Of a stretch of 64,000 bases of DNA, positions 5,053-32,314 are shown in pieces. Under the pieces are notes generated by a model. The model had not been told where the DNA came from, ran no database searches, and saw only the letters and a list, made by a program, of their open reading frames with translations. Location: assembly GCF_024298765.1 (NCBI RefSeq), contig NZ_CP101211.1. One strand, 5' to 3'. Within the stretch, counting starts at the first letter, position 1; each line of letters begins with the position of its first letter. Origin of the DNA: Escherichia coli (lineage in GTDB: Bacteria; Pseudomonadota; Gammaproteobacteria; Enterobacterales; Enterobacteriaceae). Made by a program: the position numbers and the translations under genes.

Positions 5053-6837
5053 ATGGGTAAGCCAACAGAAGAGCAAAGACCTGTTATCGAGAATGCTAGC
5101 GCAAACAATATGGTGATAGCAGCGCCTGGATCAGGCAAATCATTCACCATGATAGAAGCGGTTATATCGATTCTCAAAAAGTATCCATATGCAAGAATCG
5201 GGATGGTGACCTTTACTCGCGCTGCAACAAACGCACTTGCAGCAAAGTTACAAAAGCGATTGAGCAAGAAGGATCTTGACCGGGTGCTGGTGGATACTTT
5301 TCACGGACTCGTTAAGAAGCAACTGGACATGATTCGCTGGCCGGGAAAGATGTTGATAGGGCCAGCACAGAGATCTGTCATTCACCGGGCTTTGAAAGAA
5401 TCCGGTGTAACGATGAAGTTTGCTGAAGCTGAATTCGTTATTGATGCTATCGGCAGAGAAATGGATACGGATGTGATTTCAGTTCGGCATAACAGACAAC
5501 AGATCCATTTATTTAATACCTATCAGGCGTTATGCCAGAAAGACCATGTGGCGGACCTCAATGCTCTTTCAAAATTTGTTGTCGGTCAAATGCATTCGGG
5601 AAAAATGCGCACGTTAGATTTGACACATTTGATAGTAGACGAAGTTCAGGATACTGACTCTATACAATTCTCATGGATAGCATTGCATACAAGAGCTGGA
5701 GTCTATACGAGTATAGTTGGAGACGATGATCAGGCCATCTACTCCTTCAGATCCTCAGGAGGAGTCAAAATATTTCAACAGTTTGAAAAACACTTCAGAC
5801 CTAACATATTTTACTTAAACACATGCTTTAGGTGTGAACCTGAAATTTTAGAGGTGGCCGGAGCACTGATAGGAAAGAATGTTTACCGTTATGCCAAAGA
5901 GTTACGCTCGGCAAAAAAGGGAGGAGGAAAGGTCACTTTTCGTTCATATGTAGATATGGAGGAACAGATACAGGGTATTTTAAGCCTTATAAATCAGGAT
6001 CCACATGGATGGGCAATTCTAAGCCGCAATAATGCTCACTTGGATGAGCTAGAAAGTTTGATCGAACAGCCAGTAATTCGTTACGGAGGTAAATCATTCT
6101 GGGATGAAAAAGAAACAAGCGATGTGTTAAGCCTTATGGCCTTTTTCCGACAATCAAATGATCCTCGCTTAATGAAGAGAGTATTGGCATTGTTTGGAGA
6201 ACAGGAATCAGTTTTGGATGAAGTGGCATTGAGTATGAGAGGAAGAAAAGTTACTTTTGGCGACCTTGCCATCCCGGAGGACAGTTCTCTCGAAACAAAA
6301 ACATTACATTCAAACTTCGTGCGCTTTACCCAGGAAAGTACTGATAAAGTTGAGATAGCAAAACGTTTCGCCAACCTTACGAAATGGATGGAATCGTCGT
6401 CAATCAAGATGAGGAGTAATAAAGGTACAGCAACCTTAACAAAAATTGCTTTAGACACTTGTAAACAGTGGGCAGAAAAGACTGGTTGGATGAATATGAT
6501 CAATCGTGCTGCTGCAATGTCATTAGGCCCTAGGAAGAAGGACGAGGAATACAGCCCAGAGAAAGTAGTCCTATCAACCTTGCATGGTTCAAAGGGTCTT
6601 GAGTGGAATAAAGTAATAATAATGAGTTGTAATGCGGATCAGATACCAAGTAAAAGATCAGTTGGGGAGGAGGCAATAGAAGAAGAAAGACGTTTGCTTT
6701 ATGTTGGATTTACGCGTGCAGAAAAGCAACTTTTTGTAATGTGGTATGGTGACCCTTCTTTCTTTTTAAGAGAATGCAGTGAAGAAAAGATAAAAGAAGC
6801 AGCTAATATTCGAATTTCTCCAGTTTATACAGAATAA
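5053..6837 (+). CDS. UvrD/Rep-family (SF1) DNA helicase-like protein
   Basis: 594 aa; Walker A APGSGKS near N-terminus, Walker B-like LIVDEVQD, C-terminal YVGFTRAEKQL motif typical of UvrD-like helicases; RBS gaggt upstream. Confidence 0.7.
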   Translation: MGKPTEEQRPVIENASANNMVIAAPGSGKSFTMIEAVISILKKYPYARIGMVTFTRAATNALAAKLQKRLSKKDLDRVLVDTFHGLVKKQLDMIRWPGKMLIGPAQRSVIHRALKESGVTMKFAEAEFVIDAIGREMDTDVISVRHNRQQIHLFNTYQALCQKDHVADLNALSKFVVGQMHSGKMRTLDLTHLIVDEVQDTDSIQFSWIALHTRAGVYTSIVGDDDQAIYSFRSSGGVKIFQQFEKHFRPNIFYLNTCFRCEPEILEVAGALIGKNVYRYAKELRSAKKGGGKVTFRSYVDMEEQIQGILSLINQDPHGWAILSRNNAHLDELESLIEQPVIRYGGKSFWDEKETSDVLSLMAFFRQSNDPRLMKRVLALFGEQESVLDEVALSMRGRKVTFGDLAIPEDSSLETKTLHSNFVRFTQESTDKVEIAKRFANLTKWMESSSIKMRSNKGTATLTKIALDTCKQWAEKTGWMNMINRAAAMSLGPRKKDEEYSPEKVVLSTLHGSKGLEWNKVIIMSCNADQIPSKRSVGEEAIEEERRLLYVGFTRAEKQLFVMWYGDPSFFLRECSEEKIKEAANIRISPVYTE

Positions 6838-7231
6838 TTCGATATGGGCATTTACTTATGCTTAAAGCTATAGTATAAAAACAATGAGCTTAAATATCAG
6901 CTCCCAAATTTGAGTAACTTTGCTTAAAGTTACTTTCGCGTTAAGCGTTGATTTAGCCGTGAAAAGCGGCCAGCTTAAACAAGCTGTAAGACACCACCGG
7001 CAAAATGTCACCTTTGTCGCTGGTGCACTTCCCATGCCTGAAAAAGGCAATCTGAATTTACCAAACCGTAACTAATTTAGCTCCTCCTGGAGCTATTTTT
7101 GTTGCGTACTTCTAATGCCAGATAGTATAAATCAGGCGGTTCATAGCTTACGGGAGATGAATGACAGGCTTTGCCTTCGTGTTGAAACAAAAAATTGTTT
7201 CTTCCTTCTTACTATATATAGGTGACCCCAA

Positions 7232-8104
7232 ATGTCTAAAAATAAAGCTCGCAGTAAAGCCCTTCATCAAACCTTTAGTGAAATTATTCCAGAGATGGAT
7301 AAGGCGCTAAACAAACAGCTCTTAGAAGTTCTGATGAAATATACAGAACGTGATAATGAACTGATTGTTATTTTGAATGAGGACGGCCCAAATATCATTG
7401 AACTTAAGTCTCTTAAGCCTGTGTCTTTGTTGGCCGAAAAGCTTTCTGCTTATTCAAGCTATTATCATGTGGATGTTGTGGAGCTCGTGGTCAAGAAAAT
7501 TGATTTCGAAGGAGCTTATAAGCTTCTTAAAGCTTCCCCAGATGTACCACTTTTTAAAAGCTTAACTGAACTGGATAAATATCTTGTTGAGGAGTTTGAA
7601 AAATTCGGATTAAATTCATTTCTTGACGTGGATAATCTGGATTACTCACTTGAAAAAGCCAGTGAACTCAAAAATGAGCAGTTAATAAATTGGGTTTCGG
7701 ACATCATTTGCAAACGTGAAAAATTAACTTTACGTAAGCGTTTTGATGTCGCAGTAAAGGCCCACTACGAAAATGTAGAAAAAATGTATGATACCATTCG
7801 TCCGTTAATGAAAAAACTGGGTTTCCCAGAAGATCTCATGACGCACACCTTTAGTGAGTTAAGCGTTTTTGAAACTAAAGGATGGGACCATGCAATAAAA
7901 TCGAAAATTGAGACTCTCGCTAAGCGTGAAACTCAATATTTAGATGATGCGGCTAAAGCAGAGAATCGACGTCTTGTAACAGAGAAGTTGGAGAACTCTT
8001 TAGCGATTGCACCAACTAAACCAACAAGAAATTGGTTACATATTGCCGGAATTGCCTGTTTGGTAGTCTGCACGTTCATGTATGTAACTAATAAATTTAT
8101 TTAA
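7232..8104 (+). CDS. Hypothetical protein with C-terminal transmembrane anchor
   Basis: 290-aa ORF, charged helical body, hydrophobic C-terminus (WLHIAGIACLVVCTFMYV). Confidence 0.4.
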   Translation: MSKNKARSKALHQTFSEIIPEMDKALNKQLLEVLMKYTERDNELIVILNEDGPNIIELKSLKPVSLLAEKLSAYSSYYHVDVVELVVKKIDFEGAYKLLKASPDVPLFKSLTELDKYLVEEFEKFGLNSFLDVDNLDYSLEKASELKNEQLINWVSDIICKREKLTLRKRFDVAVKAHYENVEKMYDTIRPLMKKLGFPEDLMTHTFSELSVFETKGWDHAIKSKIETLAKRETQYLDDAAKAENRRLVTEKLENSLAIAPTKPTRNWLHIAGIACLVVCTFMYVTNKFI

Positions 8105-8539: not shown

Positions 8540-8599
8540 CATTAAACCCACCCTAAAGGGGAGAAATCCCTTCATGGGATTTCTCCTTTTGGAGTCCCC

Positions 8600-9577
8600 A
8601 TGAAACAAAAATTTAGGGCTACTGCAATAAGTAGTAATCAACTTAGTTTTTTTTCTATACTCGATATAGATGAAGATGAAATAACGCAAATAGTTGATTC
8701 ACCCAAAGAGCATTTAAATGATGCTTACACGTCCGGATTAAACTTTAAATCAGAAGAAAGTAACATTTCTGAGATAAATTATGATTCTGAAAGGCGTGAA
8801 AATCACCTTTATGAAAAATCCAAATTACTTAAAAATCAGATTTTGCATACAATTAATTTTGCAACAGAAACAGATTATCTATATACGGTTGAAGAATATA
8901 ACCCAGATTTGGGTGGTCTGGTAATAGAATGGACCCCTGAGGATGTGTATGTTGTTTTTCTATCCGCTATGGAAGAGTCTTTGGAAATCATTAAAGAACT
9001 AGTGTTGAGGAGAAAGTTATTCTTCAAAGATGACAATGGTAATATCACAGTGAATCCACTTTTAGAAGCTGAAACACGGTGGTATATGTCAAAATCATTT
9101 GAATACACTTGTTTATCTCATGGACTTGATGCATGTGAATTTAGAGCGGAATTAAAATCATGGCTCTATTATCATTCGCATCGTTCGATTAGTGAAAACA
9201 CGAAATTAGCTGAATGCAGGAATGATGATGAAATCATTTTGCATGATTGCAATGACGATATGGGCTGGGACATCTTCTTTGATCAGGATTATTTAATGTC
9301 AGAAAAAAAACTGGCTGTTAAATGGACTGACAGGGAAATTATGGATGTTTACATAAAAGCTTTTAAATCCTCATTAGAGTTGTTTGACGAGCTTGTTTCA
9401 TGTGATCTGTTAACTAAACGAAACGCTTTTGGCAAGTTAGAAATCAATCCAATATTCGAAAATCATTTTGAATGGATCATGTCTGAAGCTTTTGAAATAG
9501 TGGGAAATCATCTTGGTTATAATGTGCCTCAAATCAGGAAACTGATGGCAACTATTTGCCAAATGAATCTCAAATAA
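8600..9577 (+). CDS. Hypothetical protein
   Basis: 325-aa ORF in the same-strand gene block; no recognisable motif. Confidence 0.35.
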   Translation: MKQKFRATAISSNQLSFFSILDIDEDEITQIVDSPKEHLNDAYTSGLNFKSEESNISEINYDSERRENHLYEKSKLLKNQILHTINFATETDYLYTVEEYNPDLGGLVIEWTPEDVYVVFLSAMEESLEIIKELVLRRKLFFKDDNGNITVNPLLEAETRWYMSKSFEYTCLSHGLDACEFRAELKSWLYYHSHRSISENTKLAECRNDDEIILHDCNDDMGWDIFFDQDYLMSEKKLAVKWTDREIMDVYIKAFKSSLELFDELVSCDLLTKRNAFGKLEINPIFENHFEWIMSEAFEIVGNHLGYNVPQIRKLMATICQMNLK

Positions 9578-14279: not shown

Positions 14280-14350
14280 TAAACTCTACCCAATCGGGGC
14301 AAAAGGCCCCGGTGGGTCTTTTTGCTCCATGAAGGAATAAGGAGCAAAAT

Positions 14351-14572
14351 ATGACTCAGATAAAAACTTACCGTGTAGAACATGAAAAAGTCGGTGCGAT
14401 GCATAAAGTCCGTATTTTCGGACGTGTTGGTGAAGTTATAAGCAATGATAGCCCTCAGGAAAGAATCTTCCGCGAAGTCACTATAGCGGAGGGTAATAGC
14501 CAGCAGGCTGCGTTACTTGTAGATAACTACATACAGCGTCTTGAGAATAATGGCTTCACGACTGAAGCATAA
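14351..14572 (+). CDS. Small hypothetical protein
   Basis: 73-aa ORF with RBS aaggag upstream; palindrome terminator GAGGGCCCCCGGGCCCTC downstream. Confidence 0.3.
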   Translation: MTQIKTYRVEHEKVGAMHKVRIFGRVGEVISNDSPQERIFREVTIAEGNSQQAALLVDNYIQRLENNGFTTEA

Positions 14573-15918: not shown

Positions 15919-15950
15919 CAACGATAACTCCCCCGCTTTTTGCGGGGGGG

Positions 15951-15996
15951 GTTATCTTATCAATATTATATTTTAAAATTGTATTGATAAGATAAC
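15951..15996. promoter_or_regulatory. 46-bp perfect palindrome (15-bp arms GTTATCTTATCAATA / TATTGATAAGATAAC, 16-bp AT spacer)
   Basis: Read directly; lies in a 270-bp intergenic region after a GC hairpin terminator (CCCCCGC-ttttt-GCGGGGG). Confidence 0.4.
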
Positions 15997-16788: not shown

Positions 16789-17667
16789 ATGAAGTTAGCT
16801 ACGGACCTGGTAAAAGCTATTTTGATTAGAAATGGCGTTGAACCAGTAAATATAAGCGAATCATCTAAGTTATCTTTGAAACAACCACTGACAGAACTTA
16901 AATTCAGTTTATATTTGCGAACTGAGCATTTATCTCACTTCCTACCCGGTTATGTTTATTCTATAAAAGAATGTCCACTGTCATATGACATCGGGATCGA
17001 AATTCAGAAAATCTTCGAAAGTTTACATTTGTTAAACGAAGAATTTGAATCCCTCGGTTTTGTTTCTGTATGGATAGAAATGCATCAAAGCATTTTTGAA
17101 CAAAGTCGGTTTAAGAAAAGTAACTTTACTTTTCGGGAGGAAGAGGTCGAGCTTGCTAAAGGGCTTGTTTGTTCTCACAATTCACAAATAAGTAATGCGG
17201 CTTATTTCTGGCTTCAGCACTTTGAGGAGTTTATGATTTATGTTCGTAATAAGCTTATCGACCTCTTTCGAGAGGCCTATGACCTGATCCTTGGAATGCA
17301 GCAAGTATTTTTCATTCGGGAAAAGGAAGAGCTGTTGAAAACTATAAGTTATGGCGATGAGCTGTATGAGGTGAAATTCATGGCGGCTGAGCTTTACTCT
17401 ATCGAACAGAACTTAAAGTGTTCTGAATCGATAAGTACAAAATCTCAAGCTTCGGCATATATTAACCGCATCCGTGAGTTTGTGCGTTCGGGGTGGAGGC
17501 AGGGCTATATAGTCTGCCATCATAAGCGAAGTAATCAAATTTCATCATTGTCATTACCGATGTACTTGAAAGATACGTCAGGCCGAAGTGCTCGAAAGCG
17601 AGTAAAACGTCTTATATCTTCTACAGTTTGTGGTAGAAATAAAGATTTAGGTCTTACAGATTTTTAA
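16789..17667 (+). CDS. Hypothetical protein, member of tandem paralog array
   Basis: 292-aa ORF; shared N-terminal pattern (h-x-x-h-L-x-x-x-G) with neighbours; hairpin CCCTGATG..CATCAGGG upstream. Confidence 0.35.
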   Translation: MKLATDLVKAILIRNGVEPVNISESSKLSLKQPLTELKFSLYLRTEHLSHFLPGYVYSIKECPLSYDIGIEIQKIFESLHLLNEEFESLGFVSVWIEMHQSIFEQSRFKKSNFTFREEEVELAKGLVCSHNSQISNAAYFWLQHFEEFMIYVRNKLIDLFREAYDLILGMQQVFFIREKEELLKTISYGDELYEVKFMAAELYSIEQNLKCSESISTKSQASAYINRIREFVRSGWRQGYIVCHHKRSNQISSLSLPMYLKDTSGRSARKRVKRLISSTVCGRNKDLGLTDF

Positions 17668-17737
17668 TTAAATTATACCCATGTGGGGATCACACCCCAT
17701 ATGGGAGTGATCCCTTTTTTTATTGAGAGAGGATCAC

Positions 17738-18493
17738 ATGAAAATTATCGAAAAAATCATTAATGCCTTTTTGGTTGTTCAACATAAAAAAATACAGGTT
17801 AAAAACATTACATTTTTAGACAATGGGCAGGGCATGTTCTCTGGTATGTCTTTTGATGCTGATGTTTCACTGGAGTTTATGTATGAATCAGCAAAAGCAT
17901 ATAGTTCTTGTTTCTGTGATATTCCCTTTCCAGGTTTTGAAGATGCAAATCTGGAGGAAATTACGAAATTTCAATTAGATGCTCTGAAGCAAAGAAAGAA
18001 TCATTCTTTCTTTGTTAACCATTTGAGGTTTCCTATAGTTTTAAGGGAAGGGTGCAAAATCGAAAGAGGAGAAGTCTATTCAATTTCGAATTGCACTTAT
18101 AATAAAGAAAGATTGCAGTATCTTTTTTCTCAGGATATTTACGGTAAGTTGTATAATTCCTTAGAGAAAGAATTAAGCTCGTTTTTCTCATTTATCAATG
18201 TTGAGGTGCACGAGTTGTTAAAAGATGCTGTATGCTTTGCATTAAAAATCCTGAATAAGATATCTTTGGATACACCTGAAAGACTTATTAAAGCTTTTAA
18301 TTATCGTGACTGGTATTGTAGTTACGATGTTGAGCTTTTTAGGAAAGGCTTACCTGGTCATATTCTGGAAGAGCTCATTGCTCCAGATATCTTACTTTCA
18401 GACCTTAACGGTTGTAGAAAAATACTTAGAAATGCAAAACGATTTCTAAATGGACATACACAAACCAATTGTGTTTATATTAAATATGAATGA
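17738..18493 (+). CDS. Hypothetical protein, possible paralog-array member
   Basis: ATG preceded by RBS gagagagga (track gives TTG start at 17723); hairpin plus T-run immediately upstream. Confidence 0.35.
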   Translation: MKIIEKIINAFLVVQHKKIQVKNITFLDNGQGMFSGMSFDADVSLEFMYESAKAYSSCFCDIPFPGFEDANLEEITKFQLDALKQRKNHSFFVNHLRFPIVLREGCKIERGEVYSISNCTYNKERLQYLFSQDIYGKLYNSLEKELSSFFSFINVEVHELLKDAVCFALKILNKISLDTPERLIKAFNYRDWYCSYDVELFRKGLPGHILEELIAPDILLSDLNGCRKILRNAKRFLNGHTQTNCVYIKYE

Positions 18494-18741
18494 TGGTTGG
18501 GGCCTGTTGATACCTCACACTCAGCTAAGTTGATGTCTGACAAAGAAATTAATAACCGAAGTGACTTGAAGAATTTTTCAAAGGTCTTTTTCAAAGAGTG
18601 TTTAAGTTCTGGTAAGTCGGAATATGAAAACCATCTTAGTGAAAAAGAACATGCGCTTCGCTATAATTATTAATTAAAATTATTTTCTCCCATAGGGATT
18701 TCTCCCTATGGGAGAAATCCCTCTATTAAGAGGGTATTGAA

Positions 18742-19662
18742 ATGAATGCTATACAAAAGTTAGTTGAATCTATTCTTGTTAAAATGGGTTTTGTTGGCGC
18801 TGTAGTGGAAAATATATATTTGGATTCAAAACCATTTCGGCATATTCGATTTGTGGCTGATATTCCAGTAATATCTTTTCTACCTCATTTGGTGAAATAT
18901 CTTAAGGGTGCAGACCATCTTTACAGTGGTAACGATGATTTGCATCCTCTTTTCATTTATTTTTCCGAAGCGGCTACATTAAAAGCAGGTCCTGTAAATC
19001 TCGCGAACTTTCGTTTTGAAGTTTCTATAGCTTCAACTCATTTACGACTGGTCTCAGAGCAGCCTGATTTGCTTTTCAAAGGATTTAACCGGGATAATCT
19101 AGAATACGTTTATTACCGCTCAGATTTGGCCTCTAAGGATCTTATACTAGGCCTTGTTGAACACGGTTCTCCTTTCATAAAACATCTACATGGACTTATA
19201 CAAAAGCGAATTTTAAACGAGTTCTCTCTGATTTTTTCTGTTCTTGAAAAGATTTTAGAAAGCGCGAAGCCACAAATTCTTGCTTGCTTCCATAGTGTTG
19301 ATTATGAAATGAACGTAAAAATAATAGCCGAAGCTATACCTGAAACTGTATCTAATCAGATAGTCACATCTGATTATATAGTTAATTCTATATCAGATGC
19401 GGACAAGTTTATAAATCATGTTCGTCGCTATTTAGCAGGCAGGGTAATGAAGAGGCGGATATACGCTGAATTAGATGTTTGTGAAGAAACATCAAGTATT
19501 TCACTAGTGAACTTAGGATGCTTTACGTCTCCTCTGCTCGTTACGGAATATCAAATGTTTAAGCCACACTCTTCAGGGTTATATCGAAAAGCTATAAACA
19601 ACTCCTTAAAACAGTTCAAACCAGAAATGCATGTACCTTCTGAAGAACTCTTTTATAATTAA
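18742..19662 (+). CDS. Hypothetical protein, paralog-array member
   Basis: 306-aa ORF; nested perfect palindromes directly upstream. Confidence 0.35.
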   Translation: MNAIQKLVESILVKMGFVGAVVENIYLDSKPFRHIRFVADIPVISFLPHLVKYLKGADHLYSGNDDLHPLFIYFSEAATLKAGPVNLANFRFEVSIASTHLRLVSEQPDLLFKGFNRDNLEYVYYRSDLASKDLILGLVEHGSPFIKHLHGLIQKRILNEFSLIFSVLEKILESAKPQILACFHSVDYEMNVKIIAEAIPETVSNQIVTSDYIVNSISDADKFINHVRRYLAGRVMKRRIYAELDVCEETSSISLVNLGCFTSPLLVTEYQMFKPHSSGLYRKAINNSLKQFKPEMHVPSEELFYN

Positions 19663-19728
19663 TCTAACCCATCCGGGAACCTGCTTCCCGGTGGGAAGCA
19701 CTTCCTTTTTAGTCATGAGGTAGTGTAA

Positions 19729-20667
19729 ATGTTTAAAGAATCTGACCACGTGGAATTTGTTAGTGCCTTTCTTTATCAAAATTTAGGCCTTAATGTTTCC
19801 GCTGACGATATAACCGTTCAATTATCTGATACTTCGTTCGACAAAGTAACCTTTGATTACGATGTAGATATCGATAATTTAAATTGTATGTTGGATCTCT
19901 ACATATCTGAGCTAATAAAGCACAACGCATCTTACTCCGATTCTATTCTTTTGAAACAAAAAATAATTTATTTTCTTGGAGTATTTAAGAATTTCGGATT
20001 TTTTACGTTTGATATTCGCGGATATAGTAATACTTTAAGCCCAGTTAAAGTTATTGATATTGTTTCAATGATTATTAATGACTGTGAAGAGTTATCTAAA
20101 GCTAATTCTTCTACTGATGCTATAAGAAATCTTTATCTCGATAAAATGAAGGTGGATGGGAAAGTGTTAGTTGCGAAATTTGCACTTAAACAGTTTTTTC
20201 ATTCCGACTTTGGTGACTTTATCTCATTTGTCGAGAAAAGAATTACAGATTGTCTTAATGAAACTTTAAGGATTATCAAAGCTGTTGAACATGGCTTTGT
20301 ACGTGTAGGGCAGCATAAGATTAATCGCCGTATTAATGATGACTTAAAGTTATGCATTGATTTCAATACTGATGATTATCCGGCAAATATGCCAGATATA
20401 TATATTAAGTTTAACGATACATTTGATGGGAACGGGGCGTTATATTGTGACAATGATGCCCTCATATCCCTCTATACCGATGTTGCTTCAATTATCAATG
20501 TGCCGGTGATGATGGAAGTAAGATTGATCAATAAAAGAGGGCGTGTTGTCTGTGATTCTTCGCATTCAACTTACGTATCTCTCGAAAGTAATGACCGATA
20601 CAGAGTAACTGATCGCACATTACTAATAACTGAAGCTTTTGACGATTTTCGTAACGCGTCTCAATGA
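19729..20667 (+). CDS. Hypothetical protein, paralog-array member (intact sister of the IS1-split gene)
   Basis: 312 aa; N- and C-terminal blocks align with the 20833 gene (VLVAKFALKQFFHSDF vs VMIARFALQQFWDTHF); near-identical RBS gaggtagtgtaaatg. Confidence 0.4.
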   Translation: MFKESDHVEFVSAFLYQNLGLNVSADDITVQLSDTSFDKVTFDYDVDIDNLNCMLDLYISELIKHNASYSDSILLKQKIIYFLGVFKNFGFFTFDIRGYSNTLSPVKVIDIVSMIINDCEELSKANSSTDAIRNLYLDKMKVDGKVLVAKFALKQFFHSDFGDFISFVEKRITDCLNETLRIIKAVEHGFVRVGQHKINRRINDDLKLCIDFNTDDYPANMPDIYIKFNDTFDGNGALYCDNDALISLYTDVASIINVPVMMEVRLINKRGRVVCDSSHSTYVSLESNDRYRVTDRTLLITEAFDDFRNASQ

Positions 20668-21443: not shown

Positions 21444-21947
21444 TTATTGATAGTGTTTTATGTTCAGATAATGCCCGATGACTTTGTCATGCAGCTCCAC
21501 CGATTTTGAGAACGACAGCGACTTCCGTCCCAGCCGTGCCAGGTGCTGCCTCAGATTCAGGTTATGCCGCTCAATTCGCTGCGTATATCGCTTGCTGATT
21601 ACGTGCAGCTTTCCCTTCAGGCGGGATTCATACAGCGGCCAGCCATCCGTCATCCATATCACCACGTCAAAGGGTGACAGCAGGCTCATAAGACGCCCCA
21701 GCGTCGCCATAGTGCGTTCACCGAATACGTGCGCAACAACCGTCTTCCGGAGCCTGTCATACGCGTAAAACAGCCAGCGCTGGCGCGATTTAGCCCCGAC
21801 GTATCCCCACTGTTCGTCCATTTCCGCGCAGACGATGACGTCACTGCCCGGCTGTATGCGCGAGGTTACCGACTGCGGCCTGAGTTTTTTAAATGGCGGA
21901 AAATCGTGTTGAGGCCAACGCCCATAATGCGGGCGGTTGCCCGGCAT
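21444..21947 (-). CDS. insB: IS1 InsB (transposase made by frameshift fusion with InsA)
   Basis: 167-aa ORF matching IS1 InsB as recalled. Confidence 0.8.
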
Positions 21948-25156: not shown

Positions 25157-26137
25157 ATGAGCCTGGAGAAACGTATGAGTTATGACGATTTGCCCTATTT
25201 TCGTGACCAGATTCTGGAACGTATCGACTCGCTTAAGTGTTTTCTTTCGAACACCCCCCCGCTGATGGCAAACCTGATGACTGTCTCCACCGTATCTCGA
25301 ACAGAAGAGCGACTGAAGCAGGTTAAACCCATCAGGGTTAGTGTTAAAGACGATGCTTCGGTTGAGGAAATTATTCAGGCACTTACTGACATCTGTGTGG
25401 ATGACATAGAGTCATTAAGTCATGATTCCACCAAAGTGACCACTAAATACCCGGGTCTTATCATTGTCCCAGAAAGAGCAGATCTTCTCGAAAGCTTGAT
25501 CACATCTATAAATGAAGCAAAAAATGATTTTGCTGCGGCAATGAGGCGTATCGATAATAAAAAGAATGTCCGTTTTGATAAAGTGCACAAGAAGCTCCCG
25601 GGCCTTGTCGCTATGCACTCAACAAGAAATGTCCTTTTCATCAAGTCCCAGCTTAAAAAAGTTACTTTTTCATGGCGGCTAAACCGAAACCAGGAAGTTA
25701 AAACAGCAGAGCAACTTGTGAGTTTGTTGGAGCGCAGGAGAGCCTCAGAAGTAAAAAATGTAGCAACTACCAATTTGAATGTCGTGTCTAATATCGATAA
25801 GGCTTTACACCGTCTTGAATTTCACCCACTGAAGCAGGGCGAATCTTATCGCCTTTGTCGAACTAACTCTTTCCCTGTTCCGATTGCTCACATTTTTGCA
25901 TTTAGGCCTGAAGGGCAGGAACGAAACGGGAATAAATATGCTGAGACTGATTATTCAGTAGTAAAAGCATCCTTGCCCATTTTCGCAGCAGGCAACATAC
26001 CTCAATTAAAAACGCTCTCTGACTGGGCTCCTGAAAACAGCCAGGGCCCGTCCAACCAACGGAAGCTGAGCCTGAAATATACAGAACTCGTGCCGGGGGC
26101 TGAGCTGGGCATTTTCATTGTCAGCCCCGAAAATTAA
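25157..26137 (+). CDS. Hypothetical protein
   Basis: 326-aa ORF. Confidence 0.35.
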   Translation: MSLEKRMSYDDLPYFRDQILERIDSLKCFLSNTPPLMANLMTVSTVSRTEERLKQVKPIRVSVKDDASVEEIIQALTDICVDDIESLSHDSTKVTTKYPGLIIVPERADLLESLITSINEAKNDFAAAMRRIDNKKNVRFDKVHKKLPGLVAMHSTRNVLFIKSQLKKVTFSWRLNRNQEVKTAEQLVSLLERRRASEVKNVATTNLNVVSNIDKALHRLEFHPLKQGESYRLCRTNSFPVPIAHIFAFRPEGQERNGNKYAETDYSVVKASLPIFAAGNIPQLKTLSDWAPENSQGPSNQRKLSLKYTELVPGAELGIFIVSPEN

Positions 26138-26146
26138 GGAACAACA

Positions 26147-27052
26147 ATGCAATGGATTTCCACAGCCAGCCAGAAAATCGATGAGCGTCTCTATCGTGTC
26201 TGTGTCTGGGTAAAAAAATATCACGCTGATGCGATTAACCGCGTTGTGCTTACCGTTGATCTAAGTAAAGCCCGACATGACCCTGACGAGGACCAGGTAA
26301 GAGCAGAGCTGCTGTGCGGCCATTATTTTTTGCTTCGTAAGGAAAACGCTTCGAACTCTGCGCCTGACGATCAAAAGTTTGCTTTCCTGCCTGACGGGCG
26401 CAATCTGTGTTGGCAGACCGCAACCCCGGTGCTTCAGCATCTCCTGCTCAATAAAAACGTTCCTGAGTCGCTGAGGTTGCTTACGGACTACATACATATG
26501 CGTCTGGCCAGGCTGACAATGGTACCAATGTCCGGAACCATCATGAACGAGGCTCTGCTGGACAGCATCAGCTGGGTTAAGGTGGATTTGACCTACTTCT
26601 GGCAGTACGAACAGCTCAGCTCTCATCTGGGACCCATCCAGATAACCCACAAGGCACTAGTACGCTTCGGGCATCTGGCAAAGAATGATGAAAACTCCAG
26701 TGCCATAAGAATCCTGCGTCAGCGTCTGTCTTCAGAATTCTTACAAGAATTTCAGATGGCTGAGGATGAGCTAAAGCGCAAACAGTCGTTGATGGGCACC
26801 ATGGACGTGAAAATGCTGTTTCATGCTCATTACCCCAGCCAGAAGATGCTGGTGGCTCGATATAAAAATGGTTGGGTAATGGTGGATTGTTTTCTGTTTC
26901 ATCATACCAAACCTAAGAAAAAAGCAAAAAACAAAACTACTGTGGCTAAGCCTCAACTTAAAGAGACTAAAAGAGAAGGGAGTGAAAATGGAACTGGGCA
27001 TTATGGTGTGCATCGTGTTGTTACTCTCCGTGGCGGCGGCGTGGATCAGTAA
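26147..27052 (+). CDS. Hypothetical protein
   Basis: 301-aa ORF; lysine-rich C-terminal tail overlapping next ORF. Confidence 0.35.
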   Translation: MQWISTASQKIDERLYRVCVWVKKYHADAINRVVLTVDLSKARHDPDEDQVRAELLCGHYFLLRKENASNSAPDDQKFAFLPDGRNLCWQTATPVLQHLLLNKNVPESLRLLTDYIHMRLARLTMVPMSGTIMNEALLDSISWVKVDLTYFWQYEQLSSHLGPIQITHKALVRFGHLAKNDENSSAIRILRQRLSSEFLQEFQMAEDELKRKQSLMGTMDVKMLFHAHYPSQKMLVARYKNGWVMVDCFLFHHTKPKKKAKNKTTVAKPQLKETKREGSENGTGHYGVHRVVTLRGGGVDQ

Positions 27053-27332
27053 TAAGACAGTTGATTTGCTCGAAAGATTCTATTTCAAGCGTCCGCTGAG
27101 CATGGAGTACGCGGCATGGCTACGTGTAATGTGTGCAGGCTTGTTATTGGTTTTTATTCAGGTTGCTCCACAATTTACACTTCTGTATACCCTTAAACTT
27201 GTCACGCTTATTAATCTTGGAATCCAGACAATGAAATTAAATGGCGTGTACAAATATAAAAGAACGGGAATTTTGCCTCCGGGAGGGGCACTCTCTAATC
27301 TCACCAGACTTAACCCGTTCAAGAAAAAATAA
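26988..27332 (+). CDS. Hypothetical small membrane protein
   Basis: ATG preceded by RBS gaagggag; two hydrophobic helices; overlaps the 3' end of the previous ORF. Confidence 0.3.
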   Translation: MELGIMVCIVLLLSVAAAWISNKTVDLLERFYFKRPLSMEYAAWLRVMCAGLLLVFIQVAPQFTLLYTLKLVTLINLGIQTMKLNGVYKYKRTGILPPGGALSNLTRLNPFKKK

Positions 27333-27353
27333 AGTTATGCGCCCGTGAGGGCG

Positions 27354-28538
27354 CTATTCATCAAAGGCATTTCGCATAAGCTTGATCATTGCTTTTTTAC
27401 CAGCTTCAATATTACGAATGTAGCGCATAACCATTTCTTCATTCGACCAGTTCCCCATTTCCATAATCTGTGGTAGCGAGTAACCTTCAATATTTAGCTG
27501 TATCGCTCCGCCTACACGAACGCTGTGCCCTGTCCAGTAACGAGTTTTAGTCTCATTTGGATAAAGCTCATTCCACATCTCTTTAAATGCTCGTAAAAGG
27601 GAATTTTTGCTGAGCATACCGGCATCGTCCACAGTGTCTTCTTCATCTTCATCGTTCAGAAGACTTTGCTTAGCACGATAGGGTAGGTTATGCCTTTTAA
27701 GAAGTTCAGATAGCTCATTCCCCTTACTCCGAAGCTTCCAGCCGGGTGGCATATAGCCTGTATCATGGAAATTTACGGCCTGGAAAAGGAATTCATCCGG
27801 ATGACTGTGCTGATCCATTTTCACGAGGTTCATCAATCTCAAGAGGCAGTTAGTTAACTGACGTGTCAGCCGGTAGGTAAGAAGTGTACTAATGTTCGTT
27901 TTTGTACGGTATACCGTCAGGTTAAATTCACCGGTCATACTATCCAGAGACAGATCTTTCAGACGTATACGTCGAATTTCGGATGAACGGAGCAGTGTTT
28001 CAAAGCCTGTCCAGATCAGGCACAGGTCACGAAGTTTACGAACTGAGTTTGTAGTACTGCGTAACTTTATCAGAGCCTTGAGATCGCCAATAAGAAAGGG
28101 AGTTGCCTGTTTAGTCGTCTTTCGCTTCCGGGCTTCCGATTGTTTTAAGGCTTCCAGCATGTACCATGCTTCAGACGTAATAATCCCGGGCAGGTTAAGC
28201 CCTTTTTTATGGATACTATTTAAGGCCTGAAGACAGCTGTTTATGCTGCTTCGTGACAATTTGCCTTCAAGATGCCCCATAAACGCAAGCAGAGCGTCCT
28301 CAGACACGGGGAGCGAACTTACTGGCCAGTCTGTATGCAACCGGGCATTCGCCAGATACCATTCGTTCCATACTCGTAGCCAGTGCAGATAGGTTTTAGC
28401 AGTGTTGTATCTCAGATGGGAAAAGTAACGGATCAAGCGTGAAAGCTGTTTATCATGGTTGCCGAACGTTTCCAGCTGCTGATGCAATTCGCTTTCCGAA
28501 AACTGTCTGATCACTGATTGATTCTTCATCCTGCTCAC
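27354..28538 (-). CDS. Tyrosine site-specific recombinase (phage-integrase family)
   Basis: 394 aa; C-terminal catalytic-type blocks (LRSSEIRRIRLKDL; HSVRVGGAIQL; MRYIR) typical of the family. Confidence 0.65.
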   Translation of the reverse strand: MSRMKNQSVIRQFSESELHQQLETFGNHDKQLSRLIRYFSHLRYNTAKTYLHWLRVWNEWYLANARLHTDWPVSSLPVSEDALLAFMGHLEGKLSRSSINSCLQALNSIHKKGLNLPGIITSEAWYMLEALKQSEARKRKTTKQATPFLIGDLKALIKLRSTTNSVRKLRDLCLIWTGFETLLRSSEIRRIRLKDLSLDSMTGEFNLTVYRTKTNISTLLTYRLTRQLTNCLLRLMNLVKMDQHSHPDEFLFQAVNFHDTGYMPPGWKLRSKGNELSELLKRHNLPYRAKQSLLNDEDEEDTVDDAGMLSKNSLLRAFKEMWNELYPNETKTRYWTGHSVRVGGAIQLNIEGYSLPQIMEMGNWSNEEMVMRYIRNIEAGKKAMIKLMRNAFDE

Positions 28539-28699
28539 CGGGATACACTGGTTTTAATTACAGGTCATTTTAGCACTCATGTACCTGGTTATGAACAGGG
28601 TGGAAACAACGAAAAAGGTTGTGAAATCGTTAGGCTTAAGTGAAAAATGATATTAAGATTATCCCTGGCCAGTTGAGGCCTGTCTAAAGAAGGTTGATT

Positions 28700-28912
28700 A
28701 TGTCTGACACAAAGCAGTCTTATTTAATGAAATTCCGTAAGTGTAGTTCGTTCGAAACGCTCGAAAAAGTATTTGAAAGGTTATGTGAAAAAAACTCGGG
28801 TGTCGCCTCTCTTGAAATTTCTGGTGCTTATGATCATCGTAAAGCCGAACTGACAATGAAAAAGTTATATGACAAAGTTCCTGCGAGTGTGTGGACCTTT
28901 GTTCGCGAGTAA
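28700..28912 (+). CDS. Small hypothetical protein
   Basis: 70-aa ORF from ATG with RBS aaggttg. Confidence 0.25.
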   Translation: MSDTKQSYLMKFRKCSSFETLEKVFERLCEKNSGVASLEISGAYDHRKAELTMKKLYDKVPASVWTFVRE

Positions 28913-29119
28913 TTATTAATATTGGCACAACAAAAAGACTGTGCCTGGATTTGAAAATAGTTTATGCCCCTTTCGGGGCTAAAGGCATTGTAATAGCCTG
29001 TCTTTTAAAGTTGTTTATTAAGTTCGGAGAAAAACTTTAATCATAAGCCAAGCCCACTGCTAAATACATCCGATATTCTCCTTCATTTTATTAGAAGTGA
29101 TAAAAGTTACTTTACCTAA

Positions 29120-31709
<2,590 letters not shown>

Positions 31710-31714
31710 CTGAT

Positions 31715-32314
31715 ATTGAATATGAAATCAGTCAGGTGCAGCTCGGGCGACGTAAAACAACATACAGTGAGTGCATTGAAAGCCTGATCATTGATGAGAC
31801 CAGTTCCCGGGAATGGCTATATCATCCATTAATGCATGAACTTGAATCTGAACCTCTTCAGGAGTATCGGGGACGGGAGCCTTCAGAGGAAGGGCCTCTT
31901 CTTCAGCGCCTTGCTGACTGTAAGATGAAATTGCCTGATATCCTTCCGGGCAGTCATAACGCGCTAGTCAGGTTACAGCAGGATACGATTGTATGTCTGT
32001 GTCGGTTAACGGTTCGGGCTTATGACATCGCTCAGACCGATGAATTTCCTTTGTTCCTTCGCTATTTCAGGTTGCACTGCCTGGAAAACAGCGAACATGT
32101 CAGTTACGAAAGACTGATCTGCTGGCAGGAAATGATTTCAAAAACCCAGGAAGGCCAGTCCTTGACACAAAACGAACTTGAATATCTTCATGAGATTGTC
32201 CGCATCGCCTTTTACAATCACCGGCTTAACAATGTCAGTATTTCAGATGTTAAAAACCATGACACTGGAAAGAAGAGCGGCAGGGTAGAGTCACAAAACT
32301 ATTCACTTTTATAA
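31715..32314 (+). pseudogene. 3' part of the IS100-interrupted CoiA-like gene
   Basis: In-frame continuation (..DLPD|IEYEISQVQLGRR..) of the 29243 ORF after excising the IS. Confidence 0.5.

What the first reader, a model, noticed from the sequence alone, without database searches (positions are those of the whole stretch)
27354..28538. Tyrosine recombinase at the boundary between the AT-rich hypothetical block and the IS100/ter region
The only minus-strand gene after ~20 kb of plus-strand ORFs. It may be a plasmid multimer-resolution recombinase or the integrase of an element whose cargo is the AT-rich block; no attachment site was identifiable by eye.
Basis: inference. Interest (0 to 1): 0.35.

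Follow-up and report, generated by a model that had tools for sequence, protein, structure and literature searches.

The report
Cre-like recombinase of IncHI plasmid backbone
The gene is a real, intact Cre-type DNA recombinase that belongs to the conserved core of IncHI multidrug-resistance plasmids rather than to a mobile island; its promoter carries a conserved SOS (LexA) operator, so DNA damage probably switches it on, but its DNA target and its role (most likely untangling plasmid dimers) are still unproven.

Summary
The ORF is real: 27354-28529 on the minus strand, 391 aa. The protein is a Cre-type tyrosine recombinase. P1 Cre is the best PDB match (E 2e-23), the AlphaFold model superposes on Cre-loxP structures (TM 0.87), and all six catalytic residues, including Cre's signature Trp, are invariant. 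The window is an IncHI2 plasmid and the gene is the ortholog of R27 ORF R0183, annotated "putative cre" since 2000.

The AT-rich block is IncHI backbone, not cargo. The order TrhI - about 24 ORFs - Tus-like - 2 ORFs - recombinase - Hha is kept in every lineage sampled, down to 37% protein identity. No repeats flank the block. The integrase-of-an-island reading is rejected.

New here: a LexA-type SOS box (28546-28565) lies directly downstream of an extended -10. It is conserved at that place in 8 of 10 lineages and is the top-scoring LexA hit in each locus.

No lox-like site lies within about 6 kb upstream of the gene. The best candidate is a single-copy 13-8-13 palindrome elsewhere on the backbone, outside the window.

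Dimer resolution is the likeliest role, but it is unproven: a published R0183 deletion did not destabilise R27.

The parts
27354..28529 (-). Cre-type tyrosine recombinase CDS, 391 aa (an in-frame GTG at 28538 would give 394 aa). Ortholog of R27 R0183; RefSeq WP_000795947.1.
   Evidence: ORF. Pfam PF00589 1.8e-13. P1 Cre E 1.9e-23. Invariant R181/K210/H335/R338/W361/Y370, equivalent to Cre R173/K201/H289/R292/W315/Y324. AlphaFold model pLDDT 86.8, TM 0.87 to Cre. dN/dS 0.08-0.14.
27594..27761 (-). Coding region for the family-specific insertion of about 55 aa (residues ~257-312; acidic, mostly low-confidence loop) that Cre lacks.
   Evidence: Alignment with Cre. Two-stretch matches to Cre-sized proteins. 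pLDDT below 50 at 267-271 and 282-300.
28567..28595 (-). Predicted sigma-70 promoter of the recombinase: -35 TTCATA (28595-28590), 17-nt spacer, TG-extended -10 TGCTAAAAT (28575-28567).
   Evidence: Consensus scan. The TGCTAnnAT motif is conserved in six lineages whose upstream DNA is otherwise unalignable.
28546..28565 (.). LexA (SOS) box-like operator CACTGGTTTTAATTACAGGT (CTG-N10-CAG with an AT-rich centre). It starts 1 nt downstream of the -10 and so overlaps the transcription start.
   Evidence: It is the top PWM hit in the 64-kb window (15.5 bits; next best 10.3). The equivalent position is the top hit in 7 further loci (13.0-20.9 bits). In whole R27 it ranks second, behind only the umuD promoter.
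27339..27354 (.). GC-rich hairpin GCGCCC-GTGA-GGGCGC between the convergent stop codons: a bidirectional terminator shared with the upstream small ORF.
   Evidence: Sequence. Conserved in IncHI1, IncHI2 and IncHI1B-type plasmids, and followed by a T-run in the recombinase sense.
25157..26137 (+). Tus-like replication-terminus-binding protein (Pfam Ter), a conserved neighbour in all lineages.
   Evidence: PF05472 4.6e-19. Synteny.
26147..27332 (+). Two overlapping conserved ORFs of unknown function (26147-27052, 301 aa; 26988-27332, about 114 aa). They always lie between the Tus-like gene and the recombinase.
   Evidence: ORFs. No Pfam hit. Synteny. The overlap region 26987-27039 is more than 92% identical in three lineages.
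28700..28912 (+). Hha/YmoA-family nucleoid-associated regulator, divergently transcribed from the recombinase in nearly all lineages.
   Evidence: PF05321 9e-19. Synteny.
29243..32314 (+). CoiA-like backbone gene split by IS100 (halves 29243-29815 and 31682-32314; IS100 istA/istB at 29842-31643).
   Evidence: CoiA_N domain. The gene is an intact 360-aa ORF in pHS13-1-IncHI2 and in distant lineages. IS100 annotation.

Best explanation
This is the Cre-type tyrosine recombinase of the IncHI plasmid backbone, the ortholog of R27 R0183. It is a catalytically competent two-domain clamp enzyme of the Cre kind. It is transcribed from a sigma-70 promoter whose start site is covered by a LexA operator. 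It is therefore probably kept nearly silent in undamaged cells and induced when RecA* cleaves LexA, that is, on DNA damage, on fork collapse and possibly on ssDNA entry during conjugation. Its most likely job is to recombine a simple lox-like site present once per plasmid. That would convert plasmid dimers, which arise by RecA-dependent recombination under the same conditions that induce SOS, back into monomers so that this 1-2-copy, over-200-kb replicon can be partitioned. The gene is part of a deeply conserved maintenance module: Tus-like gene, two ORFs, recombinase, Hha. SHOWN: family, fold and catalytic residues; purifying selection; backbone status and synteny; conservation of the promoter and LexA box. 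INFERRED: LexA binding and SOS induction; dimer resolution as the role; the identity of the target. The best target candidate is a single-copy 34-bp palindrome, N4-TGGGATTTA-CNNNNAAT-TAAATCCCA-N4, at R27 146785-146818. It is outside the window.
For: Cre-type identity. Functional gene: dN/dS 0.08-0.14; about 1,100 plasmids hold the region at 97% identity or more. Backbone status: identical synteny in IncHI2, IncHI1 and IncHI1B-type plasmids, and in lineages with only 37-53% identical recombinases. Promoter and LexA box. The box is the top PWM hit in 8 of 10 loci at the same place relative to the -10 and the ATG. In whole R27 the two best hits are the umuD promoter (positive control, 23.1 bits) and this promoter (18.7 bits). 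It is the only site-specific recombinase annotated in the R27 backbone, and R27 and IncHI2 share no XerCD-type site. Candidate site: exact 13-8-13 geometry, single copy, present once in 1,387 plasmids. The inner arms are invariant, the central four spacer bases vary, and there are no compensatory changes. This matches the published definition of Cre-type targets (PMC3553980).
Against: No lox-like palindrome lies within about 6 kb upstream or 1 kb downstream of the gene, and there is no repeat array nearby. Characterised Cre-type enzymes usually have their site close by (PMC3553980, PMC10250229). A single deletion of R0183 in R27 gave no detectable loss of stability in E. coli MG1655 (PMC4853401). 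That assay could be masked by the plasmid's toxin-antitoxin systems and was run without SOS induction. The candidate site has no recognisable equivalent within 20 kb in a distant lineage, and it could instead be an operator for a neighbouring operon. The LexA PWM was built from boxes recalled from memory. A single hit of this strength occurs in about 12% of shuffled 64-kb windows, so the case rests on positional conservation. Photorhabdus has a degenerate box, and the most distant member (439 aa) has none.
Confidence: 0.5

Rival explanations
1. The gene is the integrase of an integrative or mobilisable element whose cargo is the AT-rich 7.2-28.6 kb block.
For: The gene sits at one edge of a compositionally distinct, co-directional gene block.
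Against: The block is present, syntenic and contiguous with the tra genes in every IncHI-like lineage examined. No plasmid was seen with the tra region but without the block. The two borders share no word of 12 nt or more, and share two 11-mers against 2.2 expected by chance. The protein has Cre architecture without an arm-type DNA-binding domain. The strongly conserved palindrome at the left border behaves as a strand-specific hairpin: it is 11-14-11 with G.T-compatible changes in a distant lineage.
Confidence: 0.03
2. The gene is an SOS-triggered recombinase with a role other than dimer resolution. Possibilities are resolving cointegrates formed during conjugation or conduction, reversibly integrating the plasmid or capturing circular DNA at a lox-like site, or inverting a segment.
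For: LexA control resembles integron integrases, whose job is DNA capture under stress (PMC3108266). The candidate palindrome lies at the edge of a backbone segment next to accessory DNA in several lineages: a Tn7-like sil/pco island about 350 nt away in IncHI2, and resistance regions in Klebsiella plasmids. The deletion has no stability phenotype.
Against: The candidate site is single-copy (1,390 places in 1,387 records), so no inversion or excision substrate exists on the plasmid. The accessory islands next to it are transposons with their own machinery. Homology between lineages continues on both sides of the palindrome, so no junctions fall in the spacer.
Confidence: 0.2
3. The CTG-N10-CAG motif is not a LexA site but the operator of another repressor (plasmid-encoded, or the recombinase itself). 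In that case expression is not SOS-linked.
For: The motif is short. The PWM comes from recalled sequences. Comparable scores arise by chance in about 12% of shuffled windows. Hha/H-NS-type silencers are encoded next door.
Against: The symmetry does not extend beyond the LexA-type TACTG...CAGTA core in any lineage. Scores of 13-21 bits fall within the range of genuine E. coli boxes, 12.5-25.2. The same PWM ranks the R27 umuD promoter first. All hosts are Enterobacterales, which share the E. coli LexA motif (own knowledge).
Confidence: 0.15
4. The gene is a decaying remnant of a P1-like phage-plasmid cre gene with no present function.
For: No adjacent lox site. No phenotype on deletion.
Against: Strong purifying selection. 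All catalytic residues are invariant across 13-48 sequences. The promoter and synteny are conserved over deep divergence. Identity to Cre is only about 27%, and there is a family-specific conserved insertion.
Confidence: 0.02

Closest known systems
Cre recombinase / loxP of phage-plasmid P1
   Same: Same fold (TM 0.87, rmsd 2.6-2.9 A). Same catalytic hexad, including Trp in place of the usual second His. Carried by a low-copy plasmid replicon, where Cre resolves dimers (own knowledge).
   Different: Only about 27% identical. It has a conserved insertion of about 55 aa. No lox-like site lies within a few hundred bp of the gene, whereas loxP lies just upstream of cre (own knowledge). A LexA box is predicted in the promoter.
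Characterised plasmid- or chromosome-borne Cre-type systems (VCre/VloxP, Vika/vox, Nigri/nox, Panto/pox, YR series)
   Same: Cre-type enzymes found by homology. Their targets are 13-8-13 palindromes with no more than 2 asymmetries (PMC3553980, PMC10250229). The candidate IncHI site has exactly this geometry.
   Different: In those systems the site lay within the ~10-kb area flanking the gene that was searched. Here the nearest candidate is 12.8 kb away in R27 and about 79 kb away in an IncHI2 plasmid, and no activity has been tested.
Integron integrases (IntI) under LexA control
   Same: A tyrosine recombinase on resistance plasmids whose promoter is overlapped by a conserved LexA box, so recombination is coupled to the SOS response (PMC3108266).
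   Different: The fold match to IntI is poor (TM ~0.57). There is no attI/attC system or cassette array next to the gene.
ResD/rfsF of F and Rsd/crs of Salmonella virulence plasmids (plasmid-encoded tyrosine-recombinase multimer resolution; own knowledge)
   Same: A backbone-encoded tyrosine recombinase of a large low-copy plasmid, presumed to act on one cis site to resolve multimers.
   Different: Those enzymes are shorter, about 250-270 aa; a 246-aa example is annotated in pKpn-431cz. Their sites lie next to the gene. No SOS control is known to me.
XerCD/dif with Tus/Ter in the chromosome terminus
   Same: A dimer-resolving recombinase function genetically linked to a replication-terminus-binding protein. 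Here the Tus-like gene lies two ORFs away in every lineage.
   Different: This is a single Cre-type enzyme, not a XerC/XerD pair. No dif/cer-like site is shared by R27 and IncHI2. No E. coli-type Ter core occurs in the window.

Membership tests
Tyrosine recombinase superfamily | Catalytic residues R-K-H-R-(H/W)-Y in the C-terminal domain | tested here: met
   R181, K210, H335, R338, W361 and Y370 are invariant in 13- and 48-sequence alignments and align with Cre R173/K201/H289/R292/W315/Y324. Pfam PF00589 1.8e-13.
Cre-type (simple, arm-less) tyrosine recombinases | Two-domain C-clamp fold like Cre, Trp at the fifth catalytic position, no extra arm-binding N-terminal domain | tested here: met
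   The AlphaFold model (pLDDT 86.8) matches 33 Cre/Tre chains at TM 0.82-0.88. IntI, XerH and XerA reach only 0.44-0.58. W361 is invariant. The N-terminal 5-helix domain aligns with Cre from residue ~40.
Cre-type (simple, arm-less) tyrosine recombinases | Target is a palindrome of two 13-bp arms around an 8-bp (6-8) spacer with no more than 2 asymmetries, normally near the gene (PMC3553980) | tested here: inconclusive
   There is none between 21331 and 29566 of the window, even allowing 3 mismatches, and none in the flanking intergenic DNA of six lineages. One single-copy 13-8-13 palindrome is conserved across IncHI lineages, but it lies 12.8 kb away or more and outside the window.
Cre-type (simple, arm-less) tyrosine recombinases | Recombination of two copies of the target without accessory factors | not testable with these tools
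   Needs an excision assay (pEVO-type reporter) with the candidate site.
Plasmid multimer-resolution system | Recombinase plus a single cis-acting site on the same replicon | tested here: inconclusive
   The recombinase is present in essentially all IncHI plasmids. A single-copy candidate site is present in about the same number of plasmids, but the link between the two is unproven.
Plasmid multimer-resolution system | Loss of the recombinase causes multimer accumulation or instability | not testable with these tools
   Published data argue against a strong effect. The single deletion Del183 (159,617-160,798) did not account for any loss of R27 stability in MG1655 (PMC4853401 text and Table S2). 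Multimers were not examined.
Integrase of an integrative element / genomic island | Element bounded by direct repeats (attL/attR) derived from the crossover site | tested here: not met
   Positions 6500-7600 and 27000-29900 share no word of 12 nt or more. They share two 11-mers against 2.2 expected by chance.
Integrase of an integrative element / genomic island | Element variably present among related replicons (empty sites exist) | tested here: not met
   The block is present and syntenic in all lineages examined. Only IS- or transposon-sized insertions differ.
LexA (SOS) regulon | CTG-N10-CAG box matching the gammaproteobacterial consensus and overlapping the core promoter | tested here: met
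   28546-28565 scores 15.5 bits. It begins 1 nt after the -10. The training boxes score 12.5-25.2.
LexA (SOS) regulon | Box conserved at the same place in orthologous promoters | tested here: met
   It is the top hit at the same position in 8 of 10 lineages whose flanks are unalignable. It is degenerate in Photorhabdus and absent in the most distant member.
LexA (SOS) regulon | LexA binding and DNA-damage induction in vivo | not testable with these tools
   Requires EMSA or ChIP and reporter or RT-qPCR assays.

The most novel reading that the evidence does not exclude
IncHI plasmids, major carriers of mcr-1, ESBL and heavy-metal resistance, encode a natural SOS-inducible Cre/lox-type system. 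The recombinase would act on a distal single-copy 34-bp site, N4-TGGGATTTA-CNNNNAAT-TAAATCCCA-N4, that lies at the edge of the accessory-gene region. Antibiotic- or conjugation-induced SOS would then trigger site-specific recombination in these plasmids: dimer resolution, and possibly capture or exchange of DNA at that site. It would also be a new orthogonal recombinase/target pair for genome engineering.
Probability: 0.2. Interest if true: 0.55.

Novelty: new member of a known kind. Interest (0 to 1): 0.35.

Why it matters
IncHI plasmids are among the most important vehicles of multidrug, colistin (mcr-1) and metal resistance in Enterobacterales, and most of their backbone genes have no known function. 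Showing that this gene is a core Cre-type recombinase, and not an island integrase, removes a false lead about how the plasmid is built. The conserved LexA box gives a concrete, cheaply testable hypothesis: that antibiotics which induce SOS switch on site-specific recombination in these plasmids. That would affect plasmid stability, and possibly plasticity, under treatment. If the candidate 34-bp site is confirmed, the pair would add a new orthogonal Cre/lox-like tool. If none of this holds, the finding is an ordinary, already-annotated backbone gene.

Tried and rejected
1. Lox-like site next to the gene. I scanned for inverted repeats with 9-13-nt arms, 5-9-nt spacers and up to 4 mismatches in the window and in the flanking intergenic DNA of six lineages. 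Nothing was conserved. There are no direct-repeat arrays either.

2. The conserved ~85 nt upstream of the ATG as a crossover site. Rejected: it resolves into a -35, an extended -10, a LexA box and an RBS.

3. The invariant 34-bp palindrome at 6992-7025 (13-8-13, at the left border of the block) as the target. Rejected: it is embedded in a ~280-nt ultra-conserved leader. In a distant lineage it becomes an 11-14-11 hairpin with G.T-compatible substitutions, which is the behaviour of an RNA or ssDNA hairpin.

4. The breakpoint at ~26965 in pHS13-1-IncHI2 as a recombination junction. Rejected: it is the mcr-1-pap2 transposon cassette.

5. pTB44P1 as a 'minimal IncHI2'. It turned out to be an IncF/IncI mosaic with IS26-captured IncHI2 fragments.

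6. XerCD dif/cer-like sites. No convincing site is shared by R27 and IncHI2.

7. E. coli-type Ter core near the Tus-like gene. None found.

8. Rfam over the whole window. No hits.

9. An equivalent of the candidate TGGGATTTA palindrome in a distant lineage. Not found within 20 kb.

10. Literature searches for R0183, IncHI plus Cre-like, and LexA plus plasmid recombinase. Nothing specific turned up.
Full report
OBSERVATION. A minus-strand ORF runs from 28538 (GTG) to 27354, 394 aa. All homologs and the RefSeq annotation begin at the ATG at 28529 (MKNQ..., 391 aa), which has a Shine-Dalgarno-like GGTGAG just upstream. The protein matches Pfam Phage_integrase (1.8e-13) and weakly the SAM-like N-terminal domain. 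One detail is inexact. An IS1 transposase lies on the minus strand at 21444-21947 (Pfam 2e-78), so the recombinase is not the only minus-strand gene after the plus-strand run.

WHAT THE WINDOW IS. The region 26500-29800 is 100% identical to IncHI2 plasmids such as pQnrB4_020042. About 1,100 plasmids of Escherichia, Salmonella, Enterobacter and other genera hold at least 80% of it at 97% identity or more. The annotation around it runs as follows: TrhI transfer helicase; about 24 plus-strand genes, mostly hypothetical (AAA ATPase, DUF3150, VWA, toprim and others); a Tus-like 'Ter' protein; two small ORFs; the recombinase on the minus strand; Hha; a CoiA-like gene split by IS100; then the tellurite-resistance island. 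The CoiA-like gene is intact (360 aa) in pHS13-1-IncHI2.

WHAT THE PROTEIN IS. The best solved relatives are exclusively P1 Cre and its engineered derivatives (E 1.9e-23), matched in two stretches that bracket an insertion. In alignments of 13 and 48 sequences, R181, K210, H335, R338, W361 and Y370 are invariant. They align with Cre R173, K201, H289, R292, W315 and Y324. The Trp is the Cre-type signature. An AlphaFold model (pLDDT 86.8, pTM 0.79) superposes on Cre-loxP complexes at TM 0.87 and rmsd 2.6-2.9 A, whereas IntI, XerH and XerA reach only 0.44-0.58. A conserved, partly acidic insertion of about 55 residues (~257-312) is family-specific and mostly of low confidence. The family proper is tiny. 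It comprises 21 clusters at 90% identity. Among 1.8 billion representatives only eight matches score below 1e-30 (several of them short fragments), three of them full-length single-stretch relatives; the next tier is Cre-sized proteins that lack the insertion. The gene is under strong purifying selection: dN/dS is 0.14 between IncHI1 and IncHI1B-type, and 0.08 or less between IncHI1 and IncHI2.

IS IT THE INTEGRASE OF THE AT-RICH BLOCK? No. The complete order TrhI - block - Tus-like - 2 ORFs - recombinase - Hha is the same in IncHI1 (pEQ1, R27) and in IncHI1B-type plasmids. It is also the same in lineages whose recombinases are only 37-53% identical: Rahnella, a 255-kb metagenomic contig and others. 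Only what lies beyond Hha/CoiA differs. The block is therefore ancient IncHI backbone. The two borders of the proposed element share no word of 12 nt or more, and share two 11-mers against 2.2 expected. The protein has no arm-binding domain. An IS26-built mosaic, pTB44P1, carries the ter-CoiA-Hha-recombinase-Tus fragment without most of the block.

PRIOR KNOWLEDGE. The R27 ortholog (159,617-160,798) is ORF R0183, described in the R27 annotation as similar to the 'put. cre protein' of P1. In a systematic deletion study, the single deletion 'Del 183' did not account for any loss of R27 stability in E. coli MG1655 (PMC4853401 text and Table S2). The held literature contains no functional study of the gene, its regulation or its target.

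NEW: A CONSERVED SOS BOX. The ~85 nt upstream of the ATG are far better conserved than the rest of the Hha-recombinase spacer. Read on the minus strand, they contain a -35 TTCATA, a 17-nt spacer and a TG-extended -10, TGCTAAAAT. An independent consensus scan also picks this promoter. One nucleotide downstream lies CACTGGTTTTAATTACAGGT (28546-28565), a CTG-N10-CAG motif with an AT-rich centre, which is the form of the E. coli LexA box.

The three distant lineages have upstream DNA that is otherwise unalignable, yet they carry the same arrangement, TGCTAnnAT followed by CTG-N10-CAG. One example is TACTGTGATTTTAACCAGTA.

I built a PWM from 20 E. coli LexA boxes recalled from memory; they score 12.5-25.2 bits. 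With it, the site is the single best hit in each of six loci of 15-64 kb (13.0-18.7 bits; next best 11.7 or less). It is also the best hit in two further lineages (15.9 and 20.9 bits). Photorhabdus has a degenerate copy (11.4 bits) and the most distant 439-aa member has none. Across the whole 180-kb R27, the best hit is the umuD promoter (23.1 bits), which serves as a built-in positive control, and the second is the R0183 promoter (18.7 bits).

A single hit of 15.5 bits occurs in about 12% of shuffled windows. The evidence is therefore the conservation of the box at one position of the core promoter across deep divergence. The inference is that the recombinase is LexA-repressed and SOS-inducible, as is known for integron integrases (PMC3108266).

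THE TARGET SITE. Cre-type enzymes act on 13-8-13 palindromes that are usually near the gene (PMC3553980, PMC10250229). Here there is none between 21.3 and 29.6 kb, even allowing 3 mismatches. No palindrome is conserved in the flanking non-coding DNA of six lineages, and there are no repeat arrays. The only non-coding DNA downstream of the gene is a 21-nt spacer holding a bidirectional terminator hairpin.

A conservation profile of the whole block highlights a ~280-nt ultra-conserved leader at 6950-7231, which contains a perfect-geometry palindrome at 6992-7025. In a distant lineage that element is an 11-14-11 hairpin with G.T-compatible changes, so I reject it as a duplex core site.

Comparing every lox-like palindrome of complete R27 with an almost complete IncHI2 backbone left three conserved items: that leader hairpin, the oriT-region repeat array upstream of mobI, and one further site. 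The third site reads ACGATGGGATTTA-CCCCGAAT-TAAATCCCATAGT at R27 146785-146818. It is single-copy. It is present once in 1,387 plasmids, and in IncHI2 records the similarity to R27 shrinks to little more than the palindrome. Across five lineages the inner 9-bp arms are invariant, the four central spacer bases vary, and there is no compensatory change.

This is how a recombinase core site would be expected to evolve. But the site is 12.8 kb from the gene in R27 and about 79 kb away in an IncHI2 plasmid. It is outside the window. It could equally be an operator. I found no counterpart within 20 kb in a distant lineage. In several lineages it lies at the edge of a backbone segment next to accessory DNA. 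I rate it at about 25-30% as the true target.

MECHANISM AND RIVALS. The best-supported reading has three parts: a backbone Cre-type enzyme; repression by LexA and induction by SOS; and resolution of plasmid dimers at a single lox-like site. Four things favour dimer resolution: it is the role of Cre in P1 (own knowledge), this is the only backbone site-specific recombinase annotated in R27, R27 and IncHI2 share no XerCD site, and the gene is constantly linked to a Tus-like gene. Two things count against it: the published lack of a stability phenotype, and the missing adjacent site. Overall confidence is 0.5. By component: Cre-type backbone gene about 0.95, LexA control about 0.7, dimer resolution about 0.45.

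The rivals are as follows. An SOS-triggered role other than dimer resolution, such as cointegrate resolution or DNA capture: 0.2. A non-LexA operator: 0.15 for the regulatory component. An island integrase: 0.03. A decaying remnant: 0.02.

VERDICT. The gene is an already-annotated but functionally uncharacterised member of the Cre family in the IncHI backbone. The conserved LexA box and the distal candidate site are new, testable leads of moderate interest.

Noticed in passing
window 6950-7231: About 280 nt of non-coding DNA lie between trhI and the first ORF of the plus-strand block. They are almost 100% identical in IncHI1, IncHI2 and IncHI1B-type plasmids, whose genes are only ~70-75% identical. 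The stretch contains two hairpins (6992-7025; 7070-7103, with a variable loop) and is still recognisable in a Rahnella-type lineage. It has no Rfam match. It could be a leader RNA, an ssDNA promoter or another regulatory element of the block.
   Followed up: partly
window 8557-8604, 14296-14351, 15923-15956, 17675-17716, 18684-18724: GC-rich palindromic hairpins recur in the intergenic gaps of the plus-strand block, at syntenic positions in all three alignable lineages. Several share a CCCATAGGG/GGGATTTCTCC-like motif. They could be terminators, attenuators or REP-like elements.
   Followed up: no
window 15957-15990: A 13-8-13 AT-rich palindrome (TTATCAATATTAT-ATTTTAAA-ATTGTATTGATAA) follows the toprim gene. 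IncHI1 and IncHI1B-type plasmids have a palindrome at the same place but with an unrelated sequence (CTCTTTAGTGTTT...).
   Followed up: partly
window ~21.3-22.1 kb (tnp ORF 21444-21947, minus strand): An IS1 copy is inserted in the block and interrupts a backbone ORF that is intact in pQnrB4_020042. It accounts for the 777-bp length difference from that plasmid.
   Followed up: partly
window 29243-32314: IS100 (istA/istB at 29842-31643) has split a 360-aa CoiA-like backbone gene that is conserved next to hha in distant lineages.
   Followed up: yes
window ~26965 (equivalent position in pHS13-1-IncHI2, L010 3446-6023): In an mcr-1 IncHI2 plasmid the mcr-1-pap2 cassette is inserted in the 3' end of the 301-aa ORF, about 390 bp from the recombinase stop codon.
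   Followed up: partly
window 16789-20667: Four tandem ORFs of ~290-312 aa with no Pfam match (16789-17667, ~17723-18700, 18742-19662, 19729-20667) look like a paralogous family. Distant lineages have four to five such ORFs at the same place.
   Followed up: no
R27 108416-108578 (L014 8416-8578); IncHI2 p14076A L019 17886-18005: An array of alternating inverted repeats (AGTGACCCTATG N7 ACATAGGGTCACT) lies upstream of mobI, conserved between IncHI1 and IncHI2. This is the region where oriT was mapped (own knowledge of Lawley et al. 2002).
   Followed up: no
R27 146785-146818 (L009 11785-11818); L019 36217-36250; L026 ~1497-1530: This is the single-copy 13-8-13 palindrome with invariant TGGGATTTA inner arms. 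It is followed ~35 nt later by a conserved GTGAC-N3-GTCAC motif. It lies at the edge of the backbone next to accessory islands: a Tn7-like sil/pco island in IncHI2 and resistance regions in Klebsiella plasmids.
   Followed up: partly
L015-L017 (pTB44P1, NZ_CP070955.1): This IncFIB/IncI mosaic plasmid has captured IS26-bounded IncHI2 fragments. They include ter-CoiA-Hha-recombinase-Tus and the separate fragment that carries the candidate palindrome.
   Followed up: partly
L020 27274-27301 (p14076A 127274-127301): A weak Xer-like core (AGTACATATAA-CAAAGA-TTATGTTAAAT) has a perfect XerD arm but four mismatches in the XerC arm. It is present in IncHI2 only, and no equivalent was found in R27.
   Followed up: no
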